Virus record (IMG/VR): IMGVR_UViG_2651869781_000011
DNA length: 34,848 nucleotides
Source: a virus
Taxonomy: Duplodnaviria > Heunggongvirae > Uroviricota > Caudoviricetes
Strand: one strand, 5' to 3'
The position numbers and the translations under genes were made by a program. Position 1 is the first letter of the stretch. Every line of letters starts with the position of its first letter. This document shows positions 15,705 to 30,782 of this stretch, one piece after another. A model generated the notes under the pieces. That model was not told the DNA's origin. It did not search any database and was given only the letters and a program-made list of their open reading frames with translations.

Positions 15705-16169
15705 CTACTTAATGCACTGATCGCGGATATATTCCTGCAATCCCCTGATCATTTTTTCGCTGGTTGCAGCTCGCTCTCTGAGGATGAAATAATCCCGTTG
15801 AGCGGAGTCAGTAAGTCCGGGGCTGGCTGCATCATCCACGCCGGAGGAGGCGGTGGCTTCACGCACGGCTGGACAGACTGCTCTGATGCGCAACCGACGA
15901 CGACCAGCGGCAATATCATCACGCAGAGCATCATTTTCAGCTTTCGCATCAGCTAATTCCTTTGAATATTTTGCATCGAGTGCAGCAACGTCACGCTGGC
16001 GCACCTGCATATCAGTAATGATCGCCTCTGCCAGTTTCAGCTCTCTGGCATTGTCATCGCGTTGTGTTTTGTAGGTAATGGCGTTATCGCGGTAATGCTC
16101 TGTTGCCAGCCACAGAGCACTACAGACCATCAGCAGGACAATAATCACGCCATACAGAATTCGGTTCAT
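15705..16169 (-). CDS. Rz: Rz i-spanin
   Basis: From ATG 16169: MNRILYGVIIVLLMVCSALWLATEHYRDNAITYK...; close to lambda Rz as recalled; N-terminal TM anchor. Confidence 0.85.
   Translation of the reverse strand: MNRILYGVIIVLLMVCSALWLATEHYRDNAITYKTQRDDNARELKLAEAIITDMQVRQRDVAALDAKYSKELADAKAENDALRDDIAAGRRRLRIRAVCPAVREATASSGVDDAASPGLTDSAQRDYFILRERAATSEKMIRGLQEYIRDQCIK
15749..15949 (-). CDS. Rz1: Rz1 o-spanin lipoprotein, embedded in Rz in another frame
   Basis: 66 aa MRKLKMMLCVMILPLVVVGCASEQ...PPPPPAWMMQP...; lipobox VVGC, Pro-rich; fully inside Rz. Confidence 0.8.
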   Translation of the reverse strand: MRKLKMMLCVMILPLVVVGCASEQSVQPCVKPPPPPAWMMQPAPDLLTPLNGIISSSESELQPAKK

Positions 16170-17924: not shown

Positions 17925-17999
<75 letters not shown>

Positions 18000-18002
18000 A
18001 TA

Positions 18003-18078
<76 letters not shown>

Positions 18079-20975: not shown

Positions 20976-21233
20976 TCACTCATCTTCAAAAGCAGAAAAA
21001 CCAGCCTTAATCCCAGCTTCTTTCAGAGACGGCAACGATGTGACAAATTCATTTGCACGCAAAATAAAACCATCCGTCACAAGCCCATCCACCAAATGAA
21101 TTAACGCAGCTCCACTCTTCCTTTGTTGAGACTGTAAACATTTAATACGGCAGTGGCTGACAATAGCGCCATTCTCAACGCGCACAGTATAGAGGCCATC
21201 CTCACTAAAAATTTCACGTAATTCTTCGATTTT
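20976..21233 (-). CDS. Hypothetical protein (85 aa from ATG 21233)
   Basis: Track ORF 20976-21284; ATG with GGAAGGA SD at 21233; AT-rich; candidate TTGAAG-N18-TAGAAT promoter upstream. Confidence 0.4.
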   Translation of the reverse strand, partial: KIEELREIFSEDGLYTVRVENGAIVSHCRIKCLQSQQRKSGAALIHLVDGLVTDGFILRANEFVTSLPSLKEAGIKAGFSAFEDE

Positions 21234-21360
21234 CATCAACAGAATCCTTCCAGATAAATAGCACTCCCCCTGTTCGGGGTCCATCCCTCTTCTCCCTGCG
21301 CGCTACTTAAGTATTTTTGATTCTATTCTGGCACCGTCCAAAACTTCAAACACGTTGAAA

Positions 21361-21393: not shown

Positions 21394-22500
21394 TCAAACA
21401 ATCTGGAAAATATTTCTTGGATTTGTAATAGGTCTGTTGATGGAGAACAACTCACGAATTAAATCTTGGCTCAAGCCAGTTTTCATAAGAATTCTTAGCC
21501 AGGTTGCATCATCCAGCATTTCAATCGCCTCGGCCAGCATGCCGGGTTCTTCAGGGCGCAAAAGTTCATCACCAGGTTCAACTCTCGTATACCCTCTGGA
21601 ATTAAGATGCATATAGCCAGTTCTTGCCTGTTCCTGGGTCAATAAGCCTAATGCGCTGGCTCGATAAATACACATTTTAAGGCTGATTTTCCATCTAAGT
21701 TTAAATTCAACCAGAGCATTCCAGTCGAATTGCTTACCTCGTATTCGAGGAAATTCTTTAATGAAAGATAACCTGGGAACTAATAAGGCGCTCGAAAAGT
21801 GATCGGCTTGTGATTCCGTAAGTTTATCACCTGTCGTTATGCCCTCATGCATTACTAAATGCCCTAATTCATGACCTAAATCAGAGCGAAATCTACATAT
21901 GCTTTTTTTAACATTGTTCCTGATGATAACAGGCCTGTTATTGTGAACAGTAAAAGCATCAACACGATCATCGACTCCCGTAACATGCGCAACGATTACC
22001 CCTAAACTCTCCGCCAATTTAACCATTGATGATATAGGGCCAAGACCTAAATTCCAGGCACGGCGACAATCTTCTGCCACTCGCTCAATATCATTCGGAG
22101 TAAGTAATTCAGCCCCTGGGTGCTCCGGTATGTTAACGTCAGGAAATTCGATTTCACCTTCAACAGCAGAAATTATAATATTAAGAATCTCAGCCCTGGC
22201 CAATACACTATTAGTCAGCGTTTGAGTCCTGGACTTCTTACTCCGAAAATGGCAGACATCACTTTCCAGAGCGTATTTTCGTTCAGTAAAAAGAAAACTG
22301 GACTTAATCATAAGCGCTGAAGATATTAACTCAAGACATTGCTCCGATGGCCTGCACCCCTTCTCCAGTTTGCTAACGAATTGCTTTGTCTTGCCAATTT
22401 TTTCGGCTAACTCTTCACAAGAAAGCCCAACAGCCATTCTCGCTAGTTTGAGCTTATCACCCCGATACTCAGTGAAGTTATTCACCTGATGTTCCATCAC
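21394..22500 (-). CDS. XRE-family HTH fused to ImmA/IrrE-type zinc metallopeptidase (COG2856-like)
   Basis: 368 aa; N-terminal HTH (KLKLARMAVGLSCEELAEKIGKTKQFVSKLEKG); HEXXH motif HELGHLVMHE; AT-rich; start overlaps upstream gene by ~20 nt. Confidence 0.75.
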   Translation of the reverse strand: MMEHQVNNFTEYRGDKLKLARMAVGLSCEELAEKIGKTKQFVSKLEKGCRPSEQCLELISSALMIKSSFLFTERKYALESDVCHFRSKKSRTQTLTNSVLARAEILNIIISAVEGEIEFPDVNIPEHPGAELLTPNDIERVAEDCRRAWNLGLGPISSMVKLAESLGVIVAHVTGVDDRVDAFTVHNNRPVIIRNNVKKSICRFRSDLGHELGHLVMHEGITTGDKLTESQADHFSSALLVPRLSFIKEFPRIRGKQFDWNALVEFKLRWKISLKMCIYRASALGLLTQEQARTGYMHLNSRGYTRVEPGDELLRPEEPGMLAEAIEMLDDATWLRILMKTGLSQDLIRELFSINRPITNPRNIFQIV

Positions 22501-23293: not shown

Positions 23294-23449
23294 TTACTCC
23301 TCAGGTTCGTAAGCTGTGAAGACAGCGACCTCCGTCTGGCCGGTTCGGATTCGTACCTCGCAGAGGTCTTTCCTCGTTACCAGTGCCGTCACTATGACGG
23401 TTAAACAGATGACGATCAGGGCGATTAACATCGCCTTTTGCTGCTTCAT
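23294..23449 (-). CDS. hok: Hok/Gef-family type I toxin (HokD/RelF-like)
   Basis: 51 aa MKQQKAMLIALIVICLTVIVTALVTRKDLCEVRIRTGQTEVAVFTAYEPEE, checked codon by codon; below the 60-aa cutoff of the ORF track; AAGGAG SD. Confidence 0.85.
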   Translation of the reverse strand: MKQQKAMLIALIVICLTVIVTALVTRKDLCEVRIRTGQTEVAVFTAYEPEE

Positions 23450-23738
23450 AGCCTGCTTCTCCTTGACCTTTCGGTCCGTAAGAGGCTAATCTCTATGTGT
23501 CGCATAGATATGGCCTCAGATTAATGTTAAGCGTCTTGCAGGACGCGTAATGTTAACTGGGGCTTTTCTCTATCTGCCGTTGGTGTTCATGCCTGAGGCA
23601 GATAGCCTCAAGCACCCGCAGCAATTCTACTTAACTCTCCTTTTCCCGCAAATCGTTTTTATCCCCAGCGGCAAATCGAATACACCACCAGCGCCACCGC
23701 CATTGCAATTCCCATCGTTGCGAATGCTTCAGGCCAGG

Positions 23739-25753: not shown

Positions 25754-26500
25754 TCACTTCGTGATTCCTGGCTGGACGACATTCGGGCGCCAGCTTTCCC
25801 AGTTAAAATTCACCCAGCGTCCGCCGTTCATGGTCATGCGATCCATAATCCGCTCACCGAGCAATGTTTTCATGGCCTCATAGTTCAGGTTTGTCAGCAT
25901 TCCCACGCTACGCATCGACGCTGTCCGTCGATCAATAATCTGGTGCAGTACCACCTGCTCGTTTTTCGTCTCACGCTGAATGCCAATTTCATCAAGAACC
26001 AGCAGATCCACTTCGCACAGTTCCTGCAAAAATTTTTCGCCTGACTGCCCGTCGTCATAGCTGGCGTGCAGGGCACTCATAACATCAGCCACAGTAACCA
26101 CTATCACTGTCTGGCCGTCTTTCAGCAGGCGATTTCCGATAGCCGCCGCCAGATGGTTTTTCCCGGTACCAGGTTTTCCACTGAACGCGAAATTTGTACA
26201 CCCGGTCATCAGTTCATCGGCGATGGATTTTGCCTGGCTTAACGCGTATCGCTGACCGTCGTTCTGCACCTGGTAATTCGCAAACGAACATTTGCGGTGC
26301 AACGGCTGGATGCCTGAGCGATTCAGAATTTTTTCCACCCGCAACTGACGATTCAGGCGGTTGATCTCCTCGCTACGTTTCTGGCCTTCGGCAAGCTGCC
26401 ACTCGCGCCACTCCGCCACCGTTCTGTATGGAGCGGTTACATGTGGCGGGGTCAGTCTGCGGAGGCGTTCCAGAACACCACCTGTCGCAATATTTTTCAC
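25754..26500 (-). CDS. DnaC-like replicative helicase loader (IstB-like AAA+)
   Basis: 248 aa; Walker [14 protein letters not shown], Walker B LLVLDEIG; follows the O-like gene. Confidence 0.85.
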
Positions 26501-26506
26501 AGTTCG

Positions 26507-27472
26507 TTACCCCCTGAACCCCGGCGGAATTTCGGTGTCCGGTTCAGAAATGTGATTCACACAACGCTGTACAGGCGAACGCCCCAGACGGATAACCAGC
26601 TCATCCCATTTTTCGCGAAGCTTTGACGGGCTCATGACGTTTTTTACCCAGAATGGATCCCGCTGTACCCGACCAAACATTTCGCAAATTTGCCTGTGAG
26701 TTCTGCCATCCAGCATCCGCATTGTGCGCACGTCATTGGCCCACACGGTCCAGTTTGGTTCTTTCGGTCGCATGATCTCGCCATCATCGCTGGCAGCCTG
26801 CTCGTAAAGACTCACGATTCGTCCCCAGATCCACTGCGCACAAGCTAAATCTTCCTGGCTACCCCACTGGCGTTTTTTCGCACTGAACACAACCGCGTCA
26901 GGGTGTCGGGTTAAAAAATCCTGTTCAGCCGTCTGCATGTCCGGTTGCGAAGCTTCCGGACGAGAAGTGTTTTTATTCTCTGTAGTAATCTCTGTTGTAT
27001 TCTCTGTAAGATCATCGGGCCATTTTGACCCGATGACATTGGGTCGTTTTGAACCAATGGAGCGTGCCATTTTGACCTCTTCCATCGTGTCATTTTGACC
27101 TGATGGAGCGGCGCATTTTGACCTGATGGATTCGCTCACTTTGCCACCATCTAAAAGCTCACTCTCGTAATTAATCGTGTAAAAATTAGTCATGTCACGC
27201 TTTGATTTGTTGAGCTTTTCGCAACGCAAAAGCCCCAGCGTTTTCAGACTTGCAAATGCGCGTTTTAACGTTGACTCTGACCAGAACGGGAACTGTTCCA
27301 GCCATTGTTCTGTTGTGTTATAAATCCAGCGAACCCCGTTACATTCCATGCCGGAATTAGTATCTCTCAACCAGTAATGCAGCTGCTGCAGTACAATGGC
27401 TTCATTCAGGCCAATTTTCATCGCCAGCTGCGTGTTAATAACCAGTGGGCGTTCAGCAAAAAGAAGACTCAT
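26507..27472 (-). CDS. Replication initiator (lambda O-like), ori iterons inside the gene
   Basis: Track ORF to 27526 begins at TTG; ATGs at 27514 and 27472; N-terminal DNA-binding-like region, acidic repeat linker, C-terminal domain; contains the iteron array. Confidence 0.75.
   Translation of the reverse strand: MSLLFAERPLVINTQLAMKIGLNEAIVLQQLHYWLRDTNSGMECNGVRWIYNTTEQWLEQFPFWSESTLKRAFASLKTLGLLRCEKLNKSKRDMTNFYTINYESELLDGGKVSESIRSKCAAPSGQNDTMEEVKMARSIGSKRPNVIGSKWPDDLTENTTEITTENKNTSRPEASQPDMQTAEQDFLTRHPDAVVFSAKKRQWGSQEDLACAQWIWGRIVSLYEQAASDDGEIMRPKEPNWTVWANDVRTMRMLDGRTHRQICEMFGRVQRDPFWVKNVMSPSKLREKWDELVIRLGRSPVQRCVNHISEPDTEIPPGFRG
27021..27147. repeat. Origin iterons: CATTTTGACC-type repeats at ~23-bp spacing
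   Basis: Four exact CATTTTGACC copies (27021, 27068, 27091, 27114) plus two degenerate ones; three 12-bp TCTCTGT-containing repeats just upstream (26974-27009); AT-richer stretch follows. Confidence 0.7.
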
Positions 27473-27974
27473 AATTCCATCCGGCTTTTTGTTGATATTG
27501 CTGACGATACGCATGCTTGAAAGCAATAGCTTTTTCTATAAGCTCGTCAGTCTCACGCTCCACAACAGCGGGATCTGCCAAAAGCAGACCGGACTCCACC
27601 ACATCGCCATATTCTTTGTTTAACCCGGCGATCATGTACGTAATGCTTTTTCCGTCAGTAATTTCACAATACAACCTGAAATCGCTGATCCGGATAGCCT
27701 CCATAATTGCCGGAATCAGCGCCGTGAATTTTTCCCGCTTATCCCTGGTGTCGATAGCTTTCCAGCGTTCGAATATCTTCACCCGGTTAACGCCCAACGC
27801 CCGTTGATCAACCTCGCCATCATTAAACGTGACGCGTTGAACATCGATGTTCGGGCGTTCTTTCAGAGCCCAGAATGCTTCCGTGATTAATATCGTCGCC
27901 TGCTCCTGTGTCATTCCTGGTCGGCATACCCAGGCATCCAGAGCCTCACAAACCTGTTCAGGGGTGATTTTCAT
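27453..27974 (-). CDS. Hypothetical protein at the cII position (possibly YdaT-like)
   Basis: 173 aa between the Cro-like gene and the O-like gene; family assignment uncertain. Confidence 0.35.
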   Translation of the reverse strand: MKITPEQVCEALDAWVCRPGMTQEQATILITEAFWALKERPNIDVQRVTFNDGEVDQRALGVNRVKIFERWKAIDTRDKREKFTALIPAIMEAIRISDFRLYCEITDGKSITYMIAGLNKEYGDVVESGLLLADPAVVERETDELIEKAIAFKHAYRQQYQQKAGWNYESSFC

Positions 27975-28185
27975 TGTTCAACCGCCCCGCCCGCTTTGCC
28001 TTACGATATTCGTCATAAACTTTGGGGTCGTACTGAAGTTCCCCGCCGGATGCCTCTTGCAGGCGCATCGCGCGACCTTCAGGAACCAGTTCCCCCCATT
28101 GAGAAACAGCAGATGGATCAACACCAGCAGCTTTCGCTACTTTGGCTTTCGTCCCATAAAAATTAATTACGTCTGATTTAAACAT
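27958..28185 (-). CDS. dicC: Cro-like regulator (DicC/YdaS family)
   Basis: 75 aa from ATG 28185 with GGAGGGG SD; divergent from the repressor gene; HTH-like N-terminus. Confidence 0.7.
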   Translation of the reverse strand: MFKSDVINFYGTKAKVAKAAGVDPSAVSQWGELVPEGRAMRLQEASGGELQYDPKVYDEYRKAKRAGRLNNENHP

Positions 28186-28262
28186 CACCCCTCCAAAGTT
28201 GAGTTTTCTCAATAGTAATCACTCAAGGAATCTCAAGTCAAGGGTTATTAAGATATCTAAAT
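28186..28262. promoter_or_regulatory. Divergent promoter/operator region between dicC-like and dicA-like genes
   Basis: TTGAGTTTTCTCA at 28199-28211, CTCAAG direct repeats at 28222-28237; candidate minus-strand promoter TTGACT-N18-TACTAT; no SD before the dicA ATG. Confidence 0.5.
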
Positions 28263-28670
28263 ATGAACGAGAAAACTTTAGGTCAACGAATTAGAGAAAG
28301 ACGCAAACAGGTTGGTTTAAGTCAAAACGATTTAAGCAAAGCCGCTGGCGTATCTGGCTCATCAATTTCACTATGGGAAAGCGACCATACAGCCCCGCGC
28401 GGGCAAAATTTGCATCGCCTGGCTGAGGTATTGCAATGTTCACCAACTTGGATACTGTTTGGTGACGAGGATAAAACACCAGATCCACCAGTTGCACTCA
28501 ACAGCGCCTTAGACTTATCGGAAGATGAGTTGGAGATGTTGCGATTGTATCGCGCACTTCCAAAATCAGAGCAGCAAGCACAAATCAGCGAACTCCGTGC
28601 CCGCGTTGAGAATTTTAATCGCCTATTCACCGAGCTACTAGAAGCTCGCAAACGTAACAAACATCAGTAA
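28263..28670 (+). CDS. dicA: XRE-family repressor (DicA-like, CI analogue)
   Basis: 135 aa; HTH LSQNDLSKAAGVSGSSISLWE; ...VLQCSPTWILFGDEDK... matches DicA as recalled. Confidence 0.8.
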   Translation: MNEKTLGQRIRERRKQVGLSQNDLSKAAGVSGSSISLWESDHTAPRGQNLHRLAEVLQCSPTWILFGDEDKTPDPPVALNSALDLSEDELEMLRLYRALPKSEQQAQISELRARVENFNRLFTELLEARKRNKHQ

Positions 28671-28731
28671 CCCCCTTCACAAATTTTAAAGCCTTACATT
28701 TCAATGTATTGGCTTTATTTTGCATTAATTA

Positions 28732-28783
28732 TTGAGTTTTCTCATTAAAAACACTTGACCAATATTCATGAGAAAACTAAATT
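28732..28783 (+). promoter_or_regulatory. Candidate repressor-controlled promoter for the ydfA-dicF-dicB operon
   Basis: TTGACC-N17-TAAATT (28755-28783) flanked by TTGAGTTTTCTCA (28732-28744, identical to the 28199 site) and an inverted near-copy at 28769-28780. Confidence 0.45.
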
Positions 28784-28860
28784 ACCACCCATCAAGACAC
28801 CGCACGGTGTTCTCAGCAAACAGTTCCGCTACCCCGGCGTTAAGGGGAAATGAGGTCAAC

Positions 28861-29016
28861 ATGGATACTATCGATCTTGGCAACAACGAATCTCTGGTGT
28901 ACGGCGTGTTTCCCAACCAGGACGGCACATTCACCGCGATGACGTATACCAAAAGAAAAACGTTTAAAACCGAAAATGGTGCCCGTCGCTGGCTGGAAAG
29001 AAACTCAGGTGAGTGA
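28861..29016 (+). CDS. ydfA: YdfA-like small protein (51 aa)
   Basis: ATG 28861 with GAGG SD; same size and position as Qin ydfA (recall). Confidence 0.55.
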   Translation: MDTIDLGNNESLVYGVFPNQDGTFTAMTYTKRKTFKTENGARRWLERNSGE

Positions 29017-30368: not shown

Positions 30369-30425
30369 TTTTCTGTGACGTTTGGCGGCATCTGTTTGCC
30401 CATGAACTGATGTCCGCCCTTTTTA
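30369..30425 (+). ncRNA. dicF: DicF-like small RNA with intrinsic terminator
   Basis: TTTTCTGTGACGTTTGGCGG...CCGCCCTTTTT resembles Qin DicF as recalled; GGCGGCATC/GATGTCCGCC stem then T5; immediately upstream of dicB. Confidence 0.65.
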
Positions 30426-30593
30426 AAGTGAATTTTGTGATGCGGTGAATGCGGCTAAGCGCACGCGGAACAGTTAAAGCTAAAAACAGTGTTATGGGTG
30501 GATTCTCTGTATCCGGCGTTAATTGTTAACTGGTTAACGTCACCTGGAGGCACCAGGCACCGCATCACAAAACTCATTGTTGAGGACGCGATA

Positions 30594-30782
30594 ATGAAAA
30601 CGTTATTACCAAACGTTAATACGTCTGAAGGTTGTTTTGAAATTGGTGTCACTATCAGCAATCAGATATTTACTGAAGATGCCATTAATAAAAGAAAACA
30701 CGAACAGGAACTGCTAAATAAAATATGCATTGTTTCGATGCTGGCCCGTTTACGTCTGATGCAAACAGGATGCAGGCAATGA
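30594..30782 (+). CDS. dicB: Cell division inhibitor DicB
   Basis: 62 aa MKTLLPNVNTSEGCFEIGVTISN...ICIVSMLARLRLMQTGCRQ; GAGGA SD; matches DicB as recalled. Confidence 0.85.
   Translation: MKTLLPNVNTSEGCFEIGVTISNQIFTEDAINKRKHEQELLNKICIVSMLARLRLMQTGCRQ

What the first reader, a model, noticed from the sequence alone, without database searches (positions are those of the whole stretch)
28186..28790. Immunity switch with three copies of a TTGAGTTTTCTCA operator-like motif and a probably leaderless repressor mRNA
The identical 13-mer occurs between dicC and dicA (28199-28211) and again after dicA (28732-28744). An inverted near-copy (28769-28780) overlaps the -10 of a good TTGACC-N17-TAAATT promoter facing the ydfA-dicF-dicB operon. 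This is an OR/OL-like arrangement in which the DicA-like repressor would control both its antagonist and the cell-division-inhibitor operon. No SD precedes the dicA ATG, as for lambda cI transcribed from PRM.
Basis: partly seen in the sequence, partly recalled or inferred. Interest (0 to 1): 0.45.

Follow-up and report, generated by a model that had tools for sequence, protein, structure and literature searches.

The report
Operators of a DicA-type prophage switch
The repeated 13-mer is real and marks the operator sites of a prophage repressor related to E. coli DicA but with a different DNA specificity, so it is a new member of an immunity switch described since the 1980s rather than a new kind of system.

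Summary
TTGAGTTTTCTCA is exact at 28199-28211 and 28732-28744, and a one-mismatch inverted copy lies at 28769-28781. The functional unit is a 14-18 bp palindrome, TTGAG-N4-CTCAA. One copy abuts the -10 of the leftward cro/dicC-like promoter. Two copies bracket the -35 and cover the spacer and -10 of the rightward TTGACC-N17-TAAATT promoter.

Evidence that these are operators:
- They are spared by substitutions in 49 haplotypes.
- They sit at the same positions in eight other genera that have the same recognition helix.
- Repressors with other helices have different palindromes at those positions.
- A matrix built only from foreign sites ranks the four window sites 1-4 of 34,831 positions.

The layout copies K-12 Qin dicC-dicA-dicBp, where DicA repression is shown by experiment. 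The repressor is 56% identical to DicA, and its operator differs from K-12 Oc, so it should be heteroimmune.

The leaderless call is well supported. There is no SD, a TAAGAT lies 8 nt before the ATG, and K-12 dicA has a mapped 3-nt leader.

Verdict: a correct reading of an ordinary feature, and a new member of a known kind.

The parts
27958..28185 (-). cro/dicC-like gene (75 aa)
   Evidence: It is 71% identical to K-12 DicC. It matches Pfam P22_Cro at 1.1e-17 and is annotated as a Cro/CI family regulator in RefSeq.
28190..28194 (-). Shine-Dalgarno (GGAGG) of the cro-like gene
   Evidence: Read from the sequence. Anti-SD pairing is -9.8 kcal/mol.
28199..28212 (.). O_R1: perfect palindrome TTGAGTTTTCTCAA (first copy of the 13-mer). 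It spans about -7 to +7 of the leftward promoter.
   Evidence: Shown. It is nearly invariant in 49 haplotypes. nTGAGTTTTCTCAA is found at the same position in 8 other genera. Its PWM score is 23.6, rank 2 of 34,831. It occupies the same position as K-12 Oc (PMC3441716).
28212..28241 (-). PR-like promoter for the cro-like operon: -35 TTGACT (28241-28236), 18-nt spacer, -10 TACTAT (28217-28212). The predicted TSS is near 28205.
   Evidence: Found by the promoter scan. It is homologous to K-12 TTGACT-N17-TATCTT, which abuts Oc. The TSS is inferred.
28223..28236 (.). O_R2 candidate (weak): TCAAGGAATCTCAA, 24 bp from O_R1. Only the right half-site is good.
   Evidence: Found. Its PWM score is 4.8, rank 16. 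It is conserved across genera but overlaps promoter elements. It is a better palindrome (ATGAGGAATCTCAG) in E. asburiae L106. Status is uncertain.
28248..28261 (.). O_R3: TTAAGATATCTAAA (18-bp form TATTAAGATATCTAAATA, 28246-28263). It lies over the repressor gene's -10, TSS and start codon, 25 bp from O_R2 and 49 bp from O_R1.
   Evidence: Found. Its PWM score is 17.7, rank 4, and the next best hit scores 8.9. It is invariant in 49 haplotypes. It is palindromic, which a promoter need not be. It corresponds in position to K-12 'Oa'.
28249..28254 (+). -10-like hexamer TAAGAT of the repressor promoter (PRM analogue). The predicted TSS is near A28261, giving a leader of about 2 nt. No clear -35 is present.
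   Evidence: A TAnnAT lies 6-9 nt before the ATG in all 20 family loci. K-12 has TAGCAT, then 6 nt, then a mapped TSS 3 nt before the ATG. The window's TSS is inferred.
28263..28670 (+). DicA-like repressor, 135 aa, with recognition helix GVSGSSISLWESD and no S24 cleavage domain
   Evidence: Shown. The N-terminal 72 residues match the P22 c2 N-terminal domain (1ADR, 2e-15).
28687..28723 (+). Terminator-like hairpin plus U-tract after the repressor gene
   Evidence: Folding gives -12.3 kcal/mol and z = -4.05, with 0 of 200 shuffles as stable. It is almost invariant in 49 haplotypes. The simple terminator scan did not report it.
28732..28745 (.). O_L2: TTGAGTTTTCTCAT (second copy of the 13-mer), just upstream of the -35
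   Evidence: Shown. Its PWM score is 24.3, rank 1. The left half is invariant and the right half tolerates a few changes. It is conserved in 8 other genera, 35-36 bp from O_L1.
28755..28783 (+). PL/dicBp-like promoter TTGACC-N17-TAAATT. The TSS is predicted near 28790.
   Evidence: Found by the promoter scan. It aligns with K-12 dicBp, cacTTGACC-N17-TAATCT.
28768..28781 (.). O_L1: ATGAGAAAACTAAA (the inverted near-copy). It covers the 3' half of the spacer and the first 4 bases of the -10. Its right half is CTAAA rather than CTCAA because it doubles as the -10.
   Evidence: Shown. Its PWM score is 20.7, rank 3. It is nearly invariant, while the 5' half of the same spacer (28761-28767) is hypervariable.
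28791..28860 (+). Conserved structured leader of the early-left operon. It is not part of the switch proper.
   Evidence: It is nearly identical in heteroimmune K-12 Qin. Two hairpins are kept with compensatory changes across genera. Function is unknown.
28861..29016 (+). ydfA, the first gene of the repressed operon. It is followed by ydfB, ydfC, a DicF-like RNA at 30370-30419 and dicB at 30594-30782.
   Evidence: ydfA matches Pfam DUF1391 at 1.8e-27. The gene order follows the RefSeq annotation. DicF scores 41.1 bits, E = 6e-7.
20976..21239 (-). Rem-like putative antirepressor, the likely inducer of the switch
   Evidence: tblastn gives 70% identity to K-12 Rem over residues 1-83, E = 1e-34. 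Rem derepresses dicBp in K-12 (PMC10448788).

Best explanation
This is the immunity switch of a lambdoid (mEp460-like) E. coli prophage. It belongs to the DicA/DicC family and has its own operator specificity.

**The repressor.** It is 135 aa long. It has a P22-c2-like HTH domain joined to a short C-terminal domain and has no RecA-cleavage module. It most likely binds as a dimer to 14-18 bp palindromes of consensus (T)(A)TTGAG-W4-CTCAA(T)(A).

**At the right-hand operator region.**
- O_R1 (28199-28212) spans about -7 to +7 of the leftward TTGACT-N18-TACTAT promoter. It blocks transcription of the cro/dicC-like gene and of the YdaT and replication genes behind it.
- O_R3 (28248-28261) lies over the repressor gene's own -10 and start. 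It is the likely site for autorepression or for shut-off by the Cro-like protein.
- A weak O_R2 lies between them. The spacings are 24 and 25 bp.

**At the left-hand operator region.** O_L2 (28732-28745) and O_L1 (28768-28781) bracket the -35 and occupy the spacer and -10 of TTGACC-N17-TAAATT. They shut off ydfABC-dicF-dicB, the cell-division inhibitors.

**The repressor transcript.** The repressor mRNA starts about 2 nt before its AUG, so it is effectively leaderless. It ends at a hairpin terminator before O_L2.

**Promoter overlap.** The two divergent promoters overlap, with predicted TSSs about 56 bp apart. Repression at O_R1 probably also frees the repressor promoter.

**Induction.** This is probably by an antirepressor (the Rem homologue at 20976-21239), not by RecA cleavage.

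**Shown here:**
- the sequence anatomy;
- conservation of the sites;
- covariation of the operator with the recognition helix;
- homology to the experimentally studied Qin locus.

**Inferred:**
- actual binding;
- which protein binds which site;
- the TSSs;
- the promoter-interference step.
For: **Anatomy.**

**Chance.** A shared 13-mer between the two intergenic regions has P = 0.001.

**Homology.**
- The repressor is 56% identical to DicA and the Cro-like protein 71% identical to DicC.
- The closest solved structure is the P22 c2 N-terminal domain.
- Pfam gives P22_Cro, HTH_3, YdaT and DUF1391.

**Same layout as K-12.** Oc abuts the dicC -10, and two palindromes sit around dicBp. DicA repression of dicC and dicBp, and binding to Oc, are experimental (PMC3441716, PMC10448788).

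**Footprinting.**
- In phage mEp460, whose immunity region is 91% identical, substitutions flank every site but never hit one.
- In 49 haplotypes from 80 IMG/VR loci, the mean minor-allele count is 0.43 inside the three sites and 2.2 outside (P = 0.002).
- In the OL region alone it is 0.54 against 5.6 (P = 2e-5).

**Cross-genus conservation.** Eight loci carry the same helix type. They come from Buttiauxella (2), Citrobacter koseri, Scandinavium, Enterobacter ludwigii, E. asburiae, Salmonella and Yokenella. All carry nTGAG-N4-CTnAn at the same three positions in otherwise diverged DNA.

**Position-weight matrix.** A matrix built from those 24 foreign sites ranks the window's four sites 1-4 of 34,831 positions, with scores of 24.3, 23.6, 20.7 and 17.7. 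The next best hit scores 8.9.

**Specificity covariation.**
- Helices ending in SQW go with TGTTAG or ATTAGC operators.
- Helices ending in SLW go with T(G)TTGAG operators.
- His or Tyr at residue 32 goes with G at operator position 8.

**Leaderless mRNA.** There is no SD (-2.2 kcal/mol). A TAnnAT lies 6-9 nt before the ATG in all 20 loci. The K-12 dicA TSS is 3 nt before the ATG, and dicA is listed among known leaderless genes.

**Other parts.** The terminator is supported and the Rem homologue. No S24 domain was found.
Against: - No binding, footprint or TSS data exist for this immunity type, so every functional statement rests on homology and conservation.
- In K-12, the sites analogous to O_R2 and O_R3 (Om and Oa) did not bind DicA when tested alone in vivo (PMC3441716, data not shown there). 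O_R3 may therefore be a Cro-only site, may need cooperativity, or may be conserved only as promoter core.
- The TTAAGATATCTAAA element is also conserved in groups with other O_R1 sequences. This fits a promoter or TSS role as well as an operator role.
- O_R2 scores poorly (rank 16).
- The repressor promoter has no recognisable -35.
- With 8 nt between the -10 and the ATG, the mRNA may carry a 2-3 nt leader rather than none.
- The 35-36 bp spacing of O_L2 and O_L1 is not an integral number of helical turns. Cooperative binding there cannot be assumed.
Confidence: 0.85

Rival explanations
1. The sites are bound mainly or only by the Cro/DicC-like protein, or some by one protein and some by the other, rather than being shared operators of the DicA-like repressor.
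For: The Cro-like protein also differs from K-12 DicC in its N-terminal HTH part, so it too could track the operator change. K-12 Om and Oa did not bind DicA in isolation (PMC3441716). O_R3 carries TTAAG and TTTAG halves that differ from the main TTGAG motif.
Against: In K-12, the site homologous to O_R1 (Oc) is bound by DicA, and dicBp is derepressed 22-fold by deleting dicA but not dicC (PMC3441716, PMC10448788). In the lambda and P22 paradigm both proteins share the operators. The covariation seen here is with repressor helix residues.
Confidence: 0.1
2. The O_L2 and O_L1 pair is an 18-nt inverted repeat (28731-48 and 28765-82). It acts as an RNA or DNA hairpin, for example a second terminator for read-through from the repressor gene, rather than as protein-binding sites.
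For: The arms are 89% complementary and 16 nt apart (I1).
Against: Each arm is itself a palindrome, and a third copy sits 530 bp away at the other promoter. In L103 and L105 the central bases of the two sites are not complementary to each other, yet both palindromes are kept. No U-tract follows the repeat. A separate good terminator already lies at 28687-28723.
Confidence: 0.03
3. The repeats are chance, or simply promoter-associated AT-rich sequence with no specific binding role.
For: The whole-window shuffle test is weak: 7 of 100 shuffles give 3 or more matches at up to 2 mismatches. The relaxed pattern TTGAGN4CTCAA at up to 2 mismatches is not enriched window-wide, with 12 found against 16.9 expected.
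Against: The exact 13-mer shared by the two intergenic regions has P = 0.001. The sites are conserved in nine genera within diverged flanks. The matrix scores show a gap from 17.7 to 8.9. The operator changes together with the recognition helix.
Confidence: 0.02
4. The repressor is translated from a longer, leadered transcript, and the lack of an SD is compensated in some other way. Such a transcript might start at an upstream promoter, or arise as antisense read-through across the cro-like gene.
For: No TSS data exist for this prophage. There is no clear -35 for the proposed promoter. Reg-Seq found no active RNAP site in the K-12 dicA promoter fragment (PMC7567609).
Against: The K-12 dicA TSS was mapped 3 nt before the ATG by dRNA-seq and checked by RLM-RT-PCR (PMC4681348). 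The -10-to-ATG spacing is conserved in 20 loci. In K-12 the promoter needs DicA for activity (PMC3441716), which explains the Reg-Seq failure.
Confidence: 0.1

Closest known systems
dicC-dicA-dicBp locus of the cryptic prophage Qin, E. coli K-12 (Bejar et al. 1986/1988; Yun et al. 2012, PMC3441716; Ragunathan et al. 2023, PMC10448788)
   Same: - The gene order is the same: a P22_Cro-type gene, a divergent 135-aa repressor, and then ydfABC-dicF-dicB.
- One strong palindrome abuts the -10 of the leftward TTGACT promoter.
- Two palindromes 35-36 bp apart lie around cacTTGACC-N17-TAAnnT.
- A palindrome lies over the repressor's own start.
- The repressor gene has no SD, and in K-12 its mRNA is shown to be leaderless.
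- The repressor has no S24 domain, and a Rem-type antirepressor gene is present in the same prophage.
- The leader downstream of the left promoter is nearly identical.
   Different: - The repressor is only 56% identical, with a different recognition helix (VSGSSISLWESD against ISHVSVSQWERG).
- The operator is TTGAG-TTTT-CTCAA instead of TTGTTAGT-CATA-ACTAACAA, so the two should be heteroimmune.
- A hairpin terminator follows the repressor gene here.
- The prophage in the window looks complete, with tail, lysis, replication and integrase genes, whereas Qin is a remnant.
Phage P22 immC (c2 repressor, Cro, OR/OL)
   Same: - The repressor's N-terminal domain aligns residue for residue with the P22 c2 N-terminal domain (1ADR and 2R1J, E about 1e-15).
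- The Cro-like protein is in the Pfam P22_Cro family.
- From memory of the P22 literature, its operators are also 18-bp palindromes with a 4-bp centre and half-sites ending in TTAAG. O_R3 here (TATTAAGATATCTAAATA) has that P22-like form.
   Different: - There is no C-terminal S24 or RecA-cleavage domain: 135 aa here, against the 216 aa for P22 C2 given in PMC10448788.
- The main half-site is TTGAG, not TTAAG.
- Residues 32, 33, 34 and 37 are G, S, S and L here, against N, V, A and Q in P22.
- Only two clear OL sites are present.
Lambda cI/cro switch with leaderless cI mRNA from PRM
   Same: - The repressor and cro genes are divergent.
- The candidate OR sites are tripartite, with 24-25 bp spacing.
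- OL lies at the early-left promoter, downstream of the repressor gene and in the same orientation.
- The repressor mRNA lacks an SD.
   Different: - The proteins are unrelated in detail, and the repressor cannot be cleaved.
- The predicted PR and PRM starts are about 56 bp apart, against 82 bp in lambda (figure from memory). The two promoters therefore overlap.
- O_R2 sits over the -35 region of the repressor promoter rather than at about -42. Lambda-style contact activation cannot be assumed.
Gifsy-type short repressors controlled by antirepressors (Lemire et al. 2011, as cited in PMC10448788)
   Same: The repressor is short and non-cleavable, and an antirepressor gene lies elsewhere in the prophage.
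   Different: No LexA box was linked to the Rem-like gene here, and the condition that induces Rem is unknown even in K-12.

Membership tests
DicA/DicC immunity locus (Qin type) | A 135-aa DicA-homologous HTH repressor without a cleavage domain | tested here: met
   The repressor is 56% identical over 128 aa, E = 2e-51. Only HTH families match in Pfam, with no S24 domain.
DicA/DicC immunity locus (Qin type) | A divergent DicC (P22_Cro-type) gene followed by ydaT-like and replication genes | tested here: met
   The protein is 71% identical to DicC. Pfam gives P22_Cro at 1.1e-17 and YdaT_toxin. The annotation agrees.
DicA/DicC immunity locus (Qin type) | The repressor controls a downstream ydfABC-dicF-dicB operon from a dicBp-type promoter | tested here: met
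   The promoter aligns with K-12 dicBp. ydfA, ydfB, ydfC and dicB are annotated. DicF scores 41.1 bits, below the gathering score of 48. Control itself is inferred.
DicA/DicC immunity locus (Qin type) | Same operator sequence and immunity as Qin (Oc = TTGTTAGTCATAACTAACAA) | tested here: not met
   The window has TTGAGTTTTCTCAA at the homologous position. It is therefore a family member of a different immunity type.
DicA/DicC immunity locus (Qin type) | The repressor binds the operators, represses both promoters and activates its own | not testable with these tools
   This needs EMSA, footprinting or reporter assays.
Lambdoid CI/Cro bistable switch | Multiple related palindromic operators at OR overlapping two divergent promoters, and at OL | tested here: met
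   O_R1, O_R3, O_L1 and O_L2 rank 1-4 with a matrix built from foreign sites. O_R2 is weak.
Lambdoid CI/Cro bistable switch | RecA-stimulated autocleavage (S24 peptidase C-terminal domain) | tested here: not met
   No S24 hit was found. The protein is 135 aa long.
Leaderless mRNA | No Shine-Dalgarno sequence upstream of the start codon | tested here: met
   Anti-SD pairing is -2.2 kcal/mol, against -5.7 to -9.8 for neighbouring genes.
Leaderless mRNA | The transcript 5' end lies at, or within a few nt of, the start codon | not testable with these tools
   This is predicted from TAAGAT lying 8 nt before the ATG, and from the mapped 3-nt leader of K-12 dicA.
P22 c2-type repressor | A c2-like N-terminal HTH domain | tested here: met
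   1ADR matches at 2e-15 over residues 1-72 without gaps.
P22 c2-type repressor | Full-length architecture with a C-terminal oligomerisation and cleavage domain | tested here: not met
   The protein is only 135 aa long, and the C-terminal 60 aa are unrelated to S24.

The most novel reading that the evidence does not exclude
The DicA family may be a natural specificity-swap series with a readable code. Residue 37 of the recognition helix covaries with operator position 5 (Gln with A, Leu with G). Residue 32 covaries with position 8 (His or Tyr with G; Gly, Asp, Glu or Asn with a base other than G). The promoter framework stays fixed throughout. Separately, the repressor promoter lies inside the footprint of the divergent lytic promoter, with TSSs about 56 bp apart. 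The self-activation reported for DicA at Oc could then be relief of promoter occlusion rather than a lambda-style contact with RNA polymerase.
Probability: 0.35. Interest if true: 0.4.

Novelty: new member of a known kind. Interest (0 to 1): 0.22.

Why it matters
- **Where the module occurs.** It sits in several hundred complete E. coli genomes: 767 of 5,426 carry at least 80% of the 1.3-kb region. It is also found in functional temperate phages (mEp460_ev081, HannyBb) and in prophages of at least eight other enterobacterial genera.
- **Practical uses of the operator sequence.** Knowing the operator and its heteroimmunity with Qin would allow three things:
  - prediction of which co-resident dicA-type prophages cross-regulate, since O157-type strains carry several;
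  - design of reporters and operator mutants;
  - a set of orthogonal repressor-operator pairs with one promoter framework.
- **Limits.** It does not change the understanding of how such switches work.

Tried and rejected
- **In-coding GAGAAAACT (28269-28277).** It looked like a fifth site. It scores -1.8 (rank 91) and is absent from the same codons in other genera, so it is chance.
- **O_R2 as a full operator.** Only the right half is good. I kept it as 'weak/uncertain'.
- **RNA hairpin formed by O_L2 and O_L1.** Rejected, because L103 and L105 break arm-to-arm complementarity.
- **Is the conserved PL leader a put-type antiterminator?** The HK022 putL region and the annotated HK639 putL-like RNA show no sequence resemblance. 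Rfam gives no hit. RNAalifold on a MAFFT alignment returned only a 4-bp invariant helix. Single-sequence folds do show the two hairpins. The question is left open.
- **LexA boxes near the Rem-like gene.** Two perfect CTGT-N8-ACAG sites exist (16100 and 21935), but neither is adjacent to the gene. I did not pursue them.
- **Genome-contig scan with the family alignment.** It returned only 17 loci. I added ten exact-protein look-ups.
- **Bejar et al. 1986 (PMC311701).** The paper is not held. The original Oc/Om/Oa definitions are therefore taken second-hand from PMC3441716 and PMC10448788.
- **Literature search for the 13-mer.** No paper in the held library contains it.
Full report
**1. Observation**

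The 13-mer TTGAGTTTTCTCA occurs exactly at 28199-28211 and 28732-28744. Its reverse complement occurs with one mismatch at 28769-28781. There are no other matches at up to 2 mismatches in the 34.8-kb window.

The whole-window shuffle test is weak: 0.98 matches are expected, and 7 of 100 shuffles reach 3. The relevant test is stronger. The two short intergenic regions that flank the repressor gene (77 and 190 bp) share an exact run of 13 or more in only 0.1% of 3000 dinucleotide shuffles.

The promoter scan finds two promoters:
- TTGACC-N17-TAAATT at 28755-28783 (+), whose -10 overlaps the third copy;
- TTGACT-N18-TACTAT at 28241-28212 (-), whose -10 abuts the first copy.

The repeat is better described as a palindrome, TTGAG-N4-CTCAA. 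It is perfect at 28199-28212.

**2. Context**

The window is an E. coli lambdoid prophage. The genes around the finding are:

| Coordinates | Strand | Gene |
|---|---|---|
| 25754-26500 | - | DnaC-like |
| 26507-27526 | - | replication-initiator-like |
| 27453-27974 | - | YdaT-family |
| 27958-28185 | - | P22_Cro-family, 71% identical to DicC |
| 28263-28670 | + | 135-aa HTH_3 repressor, 56% identical to DicA |
| 28861 onward | + | ydfA, ydfB, ydfC |
| 30370-30419 | + | DicF-like RNA (41.1 bits, below the Rfam gathering score of 48) |
| 30594-30782 | + | dicB |

These assignments rest.

The repressor's first 72 residues align without gaps to the P22 c2 N-terminal domain (1ADR, E = 2e-15). There is no S24 cleavage domain.

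Two functional temperate phages, mEp460_ev081 and HannyBb, carry a 91%-identical immunity region. PMC10448788 already notes mEp460_ev081 as a functional phage with dicAC, dicBF and rem.

**3. Comparison with the characterised K-12 locus**

In Qin, the DicA-binding operator Oc (TTGTTAGTCATAACTAACAA, PMC3441716) abuts the -10 of a TTGACT-N17-TATCTT dicC promoter. Two related palindromes lie 35 bp apart. One is upstream of the -35 of dicBp (cacTTGACC-N17-TAATCT), and the other covers its spacer and -10.

The window has the same framework with different palindromes. Sequence downstream of about 28791 is again nearly identical to K-12. This is the classic mosaic boundary of an immunity module.

PMC10448788 states that both the dicA-dicC and dicA-dicBp intergenic regions contain operator sequences like lambda OR and OL. 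It also shows that deleting dicA derepresses dicBp 22-fold.

**4. Evidence that the sites are functional operators of this repressor**

(a) *mEp460.* Substitutions fall immediately on both sides of each site and in the 5' half of the PL spacer, but never inside a site.

(b) *Population variation.* Eighty IMG/VR loci encode a repressor 99-100% identical to the window's, and they give 49 haplotypes.
- The mean minor-allele count is 0.43 per column inside the three sites and 2.2 in the rest of the non-coding DNA (P = 0.002).
- In the OL region alone it is 0.54 against 5.6 (P = 2e-5).
- O_L2's right half tolerates a few variants. O_R1 and O_L1 are almost invariant.

(c) *Other genera.* Eight loci have repressors only 67-76% identical to the window's but with the same helix type (GVS[GDEN]S[ST][IV]SLWE[SG]D). 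They come from Buttiauxella (2), Citrobacter koseri, Scandinavium, Enterobacter ludwigii, E. asburiae, Salmonella and Yokenella. All carry nTGAG-N4-CTnAn at the same three positions in otherwise unalignable intergenic DNA.

(d) *Matrix scan.* A half-site matrix built only from those 24 foreign sites ranks four window positions far above everything else:

| Position | Site | Score |
|---|---|---|
| 28730-47 | O_L2 | 24.3 |
| 28197-214 | O_R1 | 23.6 |
| 28766-83 | O_L1 | 20.7 |
| 28246-63 | O_R3 | 17.7 |
| next best hit | none | 8.9 |

(e) *Other helices.* Family members with other recognition helices have other palindromes at the same positions:
- Helices ending in SQW go with TGTTAG (K-12, Citrobacter, Buttiauxella, Rahnella, Symbiopectobacterium) or ATTAGC (Serratia).
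- Helices ending in SLW go with T(G)TTGAG or TGTTRAG.
- His or Tyr at residue 32 goes with G at operator position 8. Gly, Asp, Glu or Asn goes with a base other than G.

This covariation ties the sites to the repressor's DNA-reading surface.

**5. The fourth site, and a weak fifth**

TTAAGATATCTAAA at 28248-28261 lies over the repressor gene's -10, predicted TSS and start codon. Its 18-bp form is TATTAAGATATCTAAATA, which is 16/18 palindromic. It lies 49 bp from O_R1.

A weak candidate, TCAAGGAATCTCAA at 28223-28236, sits between them. The three spacings of 24 and 25 bp resemble the tripartite lambda OR. O_R2 has only one good half and ranks 16. In E. asburiae it is a better palindrome at the same 24-bp spacing.

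Two caveats apply:
- The O_R3 element is also conserved in groups with other O_R1 sequences, so promoter-core conservation may explain part of it.
- In K-12, the analogous Om and Oa did not bind DicA when tested alone (PMC3441716).

O_R3 may therefore be mainly a Cro site, or it may need cooperativity.

**6. Leaderless call**

Anti-SD pairing in the 20 nt before the ATG is -2.2 kcal/mol, against -5.7 to -9.8 for neighbouring genes. TAAGAT (28249-28254) lies 8 nt before the ATG.

All 20 family loci examined have a TAnnAT 6-9 nt before the ATG and no SD. For K-12 dicA, the TSS was mapped 3 nt before the ATG and the gene was classed as leaderless (PMC4681348, Table S3). It is also listed among known leaderless genes in PMC8794815.

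By the same -10-to-TSS distance, the window's TSS is predicted at about A28261, giving a 2-nt leader. This is inference, not measurement.

**7. Mechanism proposed**

*Shown by sequence, with function inferred.*
- O_R1 occupies about -7 to +7 of the leftward promoter. Repressor bound there would block transcription of the cro-like and replication genes.
- O_L1 occupies the spacer and -10 of the ydfA promoter, and O_L2 lies just upstream of its -35. Together they would block the division-inhibitor operon.
- O_L1's right half is CTAAA rather than CTCAA because it doubles as the TAAATT -10. The same compromise is seen in every family member.

*Inferred.*
- The predicted TSSs of the two divergent promoters are about 56 bp apart. 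RNA polymerase at the leftward promoter would cover the repressor promoter. The self-activation of dicA by DicA at Oc reported in PMC3441716 could therefore be relief of occlusion.
- The repressor transcript probably ends at the hairpin at 28687-28717 plus its U-tract (-12.3 kcal/mol, z = -4.05).
- Induction probably uses the Rem homologue at 20976-21239 (70% identical). Rem derepresses dicBp in K-12 (PMC10448788).

**8. Rivals**

- *Cro-only binding* is possible for O_R3 but unlikely for O_R1, O_L1 and O_L2.
- *An RNA hairpin role for the O_L2/O_L1 inverted repeat* is contradicted by L103 and L105, where the two centres are not complementary.
- *Chance* is excluded by the comparative data.
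- *A leadered repressor transcript* is unlikely given the K-12 mapping.

**9. Novelty and score**

The kind of system is well described:
- the DicA/DicC/dicBp immunity-like locus with OR- and OL-like operators;
- a leaderless dicA mRNA;
- Rem antirepression.

What is new is the operator sequence of this immunity type, which was not found in the held literature. Also new are its fourth site and the family-wide correlation between helix and operator. This is a new member of a known kind.

Noticed in passing
window 28791-28860 (also L002, L086, L088, L089, L092-L095, L097, L101-L106, L108-L111): The roughly 70-nt leader between the PL-like promoter and the first gene is conserved across heteroimmune DicA-family prophages of many genera, whatever gene follows it. 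It has three parts: hairpin 1 (ACACCG..CGGTGT in E. coli, AATCAC..GTGATT elsewhere); a conserved single strand, ACTCAG..AAAA.GTTCCGC; and hairpin 2. Hairpin 2 shows compensatory stems (CCCC/GGGG, GCC/GGC, GCCA/TGGC, CCCT/AGGG, GCCT/AGGC) around a conserved loop, GGCG(A/T)TAA. It has no Rfam hit and no resemblance to HK022 putL or the HK639 putL-like RNA. It could be a cis-acting antitermination or processing element, but its function is unknown.
   Followed up: partly
window 20976-21239 (-): This ORF is 70% identical to K-12 Rem, the antirepressor that derepresses dicBp in Qin (tblastn E = 1e-34). It is the likely inducer of this switch. No regulatory site for it was identified.
   Followed up: partly
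window 30370-30419 (+) and 30431-30571 (+): A DicF-like RNA scores below the Rfam gathering threshold (41.1 against 48 bits, E = 6e-7). An adjacent STnc100-like match is also sub-threshold (38.7 against 47 bits). The DicF copy here is diverged.
   Followed up: no
window 23447-23617 (-); 17928-17999 and 18006-18078 (-): A sok antitoxin RNA (102.9 bits) lies next to hokD, and two tRNA genes lie inside the prophage.
   Followed up: no
window 21935-21950 and 16100-16115: Two perfect CTGT-N8-ACAG (LexA-box-like) matches are present, against 0.48 expected by chance. Neither is adjacent to the Rem-like gene.
   Followed up: no
L103 (E. ludwigii), 41 nt past the repressor stop; L106 (E. asburiae), about 42 nt before the repressor ATG: In E. 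ludwigii an extra motif copy (CATTGAGGTTTCTTACGC) lies 24 bp upstream of O_L2 and may be a third OL site. In E. asburiae, O_R2 is a good palindrome (ATGAGGAATCTCAG) 24 bp from O_R1. This suggests that the number of operators varies within one immunity type.
   Followed up: no
window 28269-28277: GAGAAAACT, the 9-nt core of the motif, recurs inside codons 3-5 of the repressor gene. It scores poorly as a full site and is not conserved in other genera, so it is probably chance.
   Followed up: yes
L092, L093, L095, L108, downstream of the PL leader: Some family members carry a GC-rich hairpin followed by GCTCTTTAA (GCTCTTTAACAA in L092 and L093), which resembles boxA, downstream of the conserved leader. 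This looks nut-like but with the hairpin and boxA in reversed order. It was not seen in the part of the window I examined.
   Followed up: no
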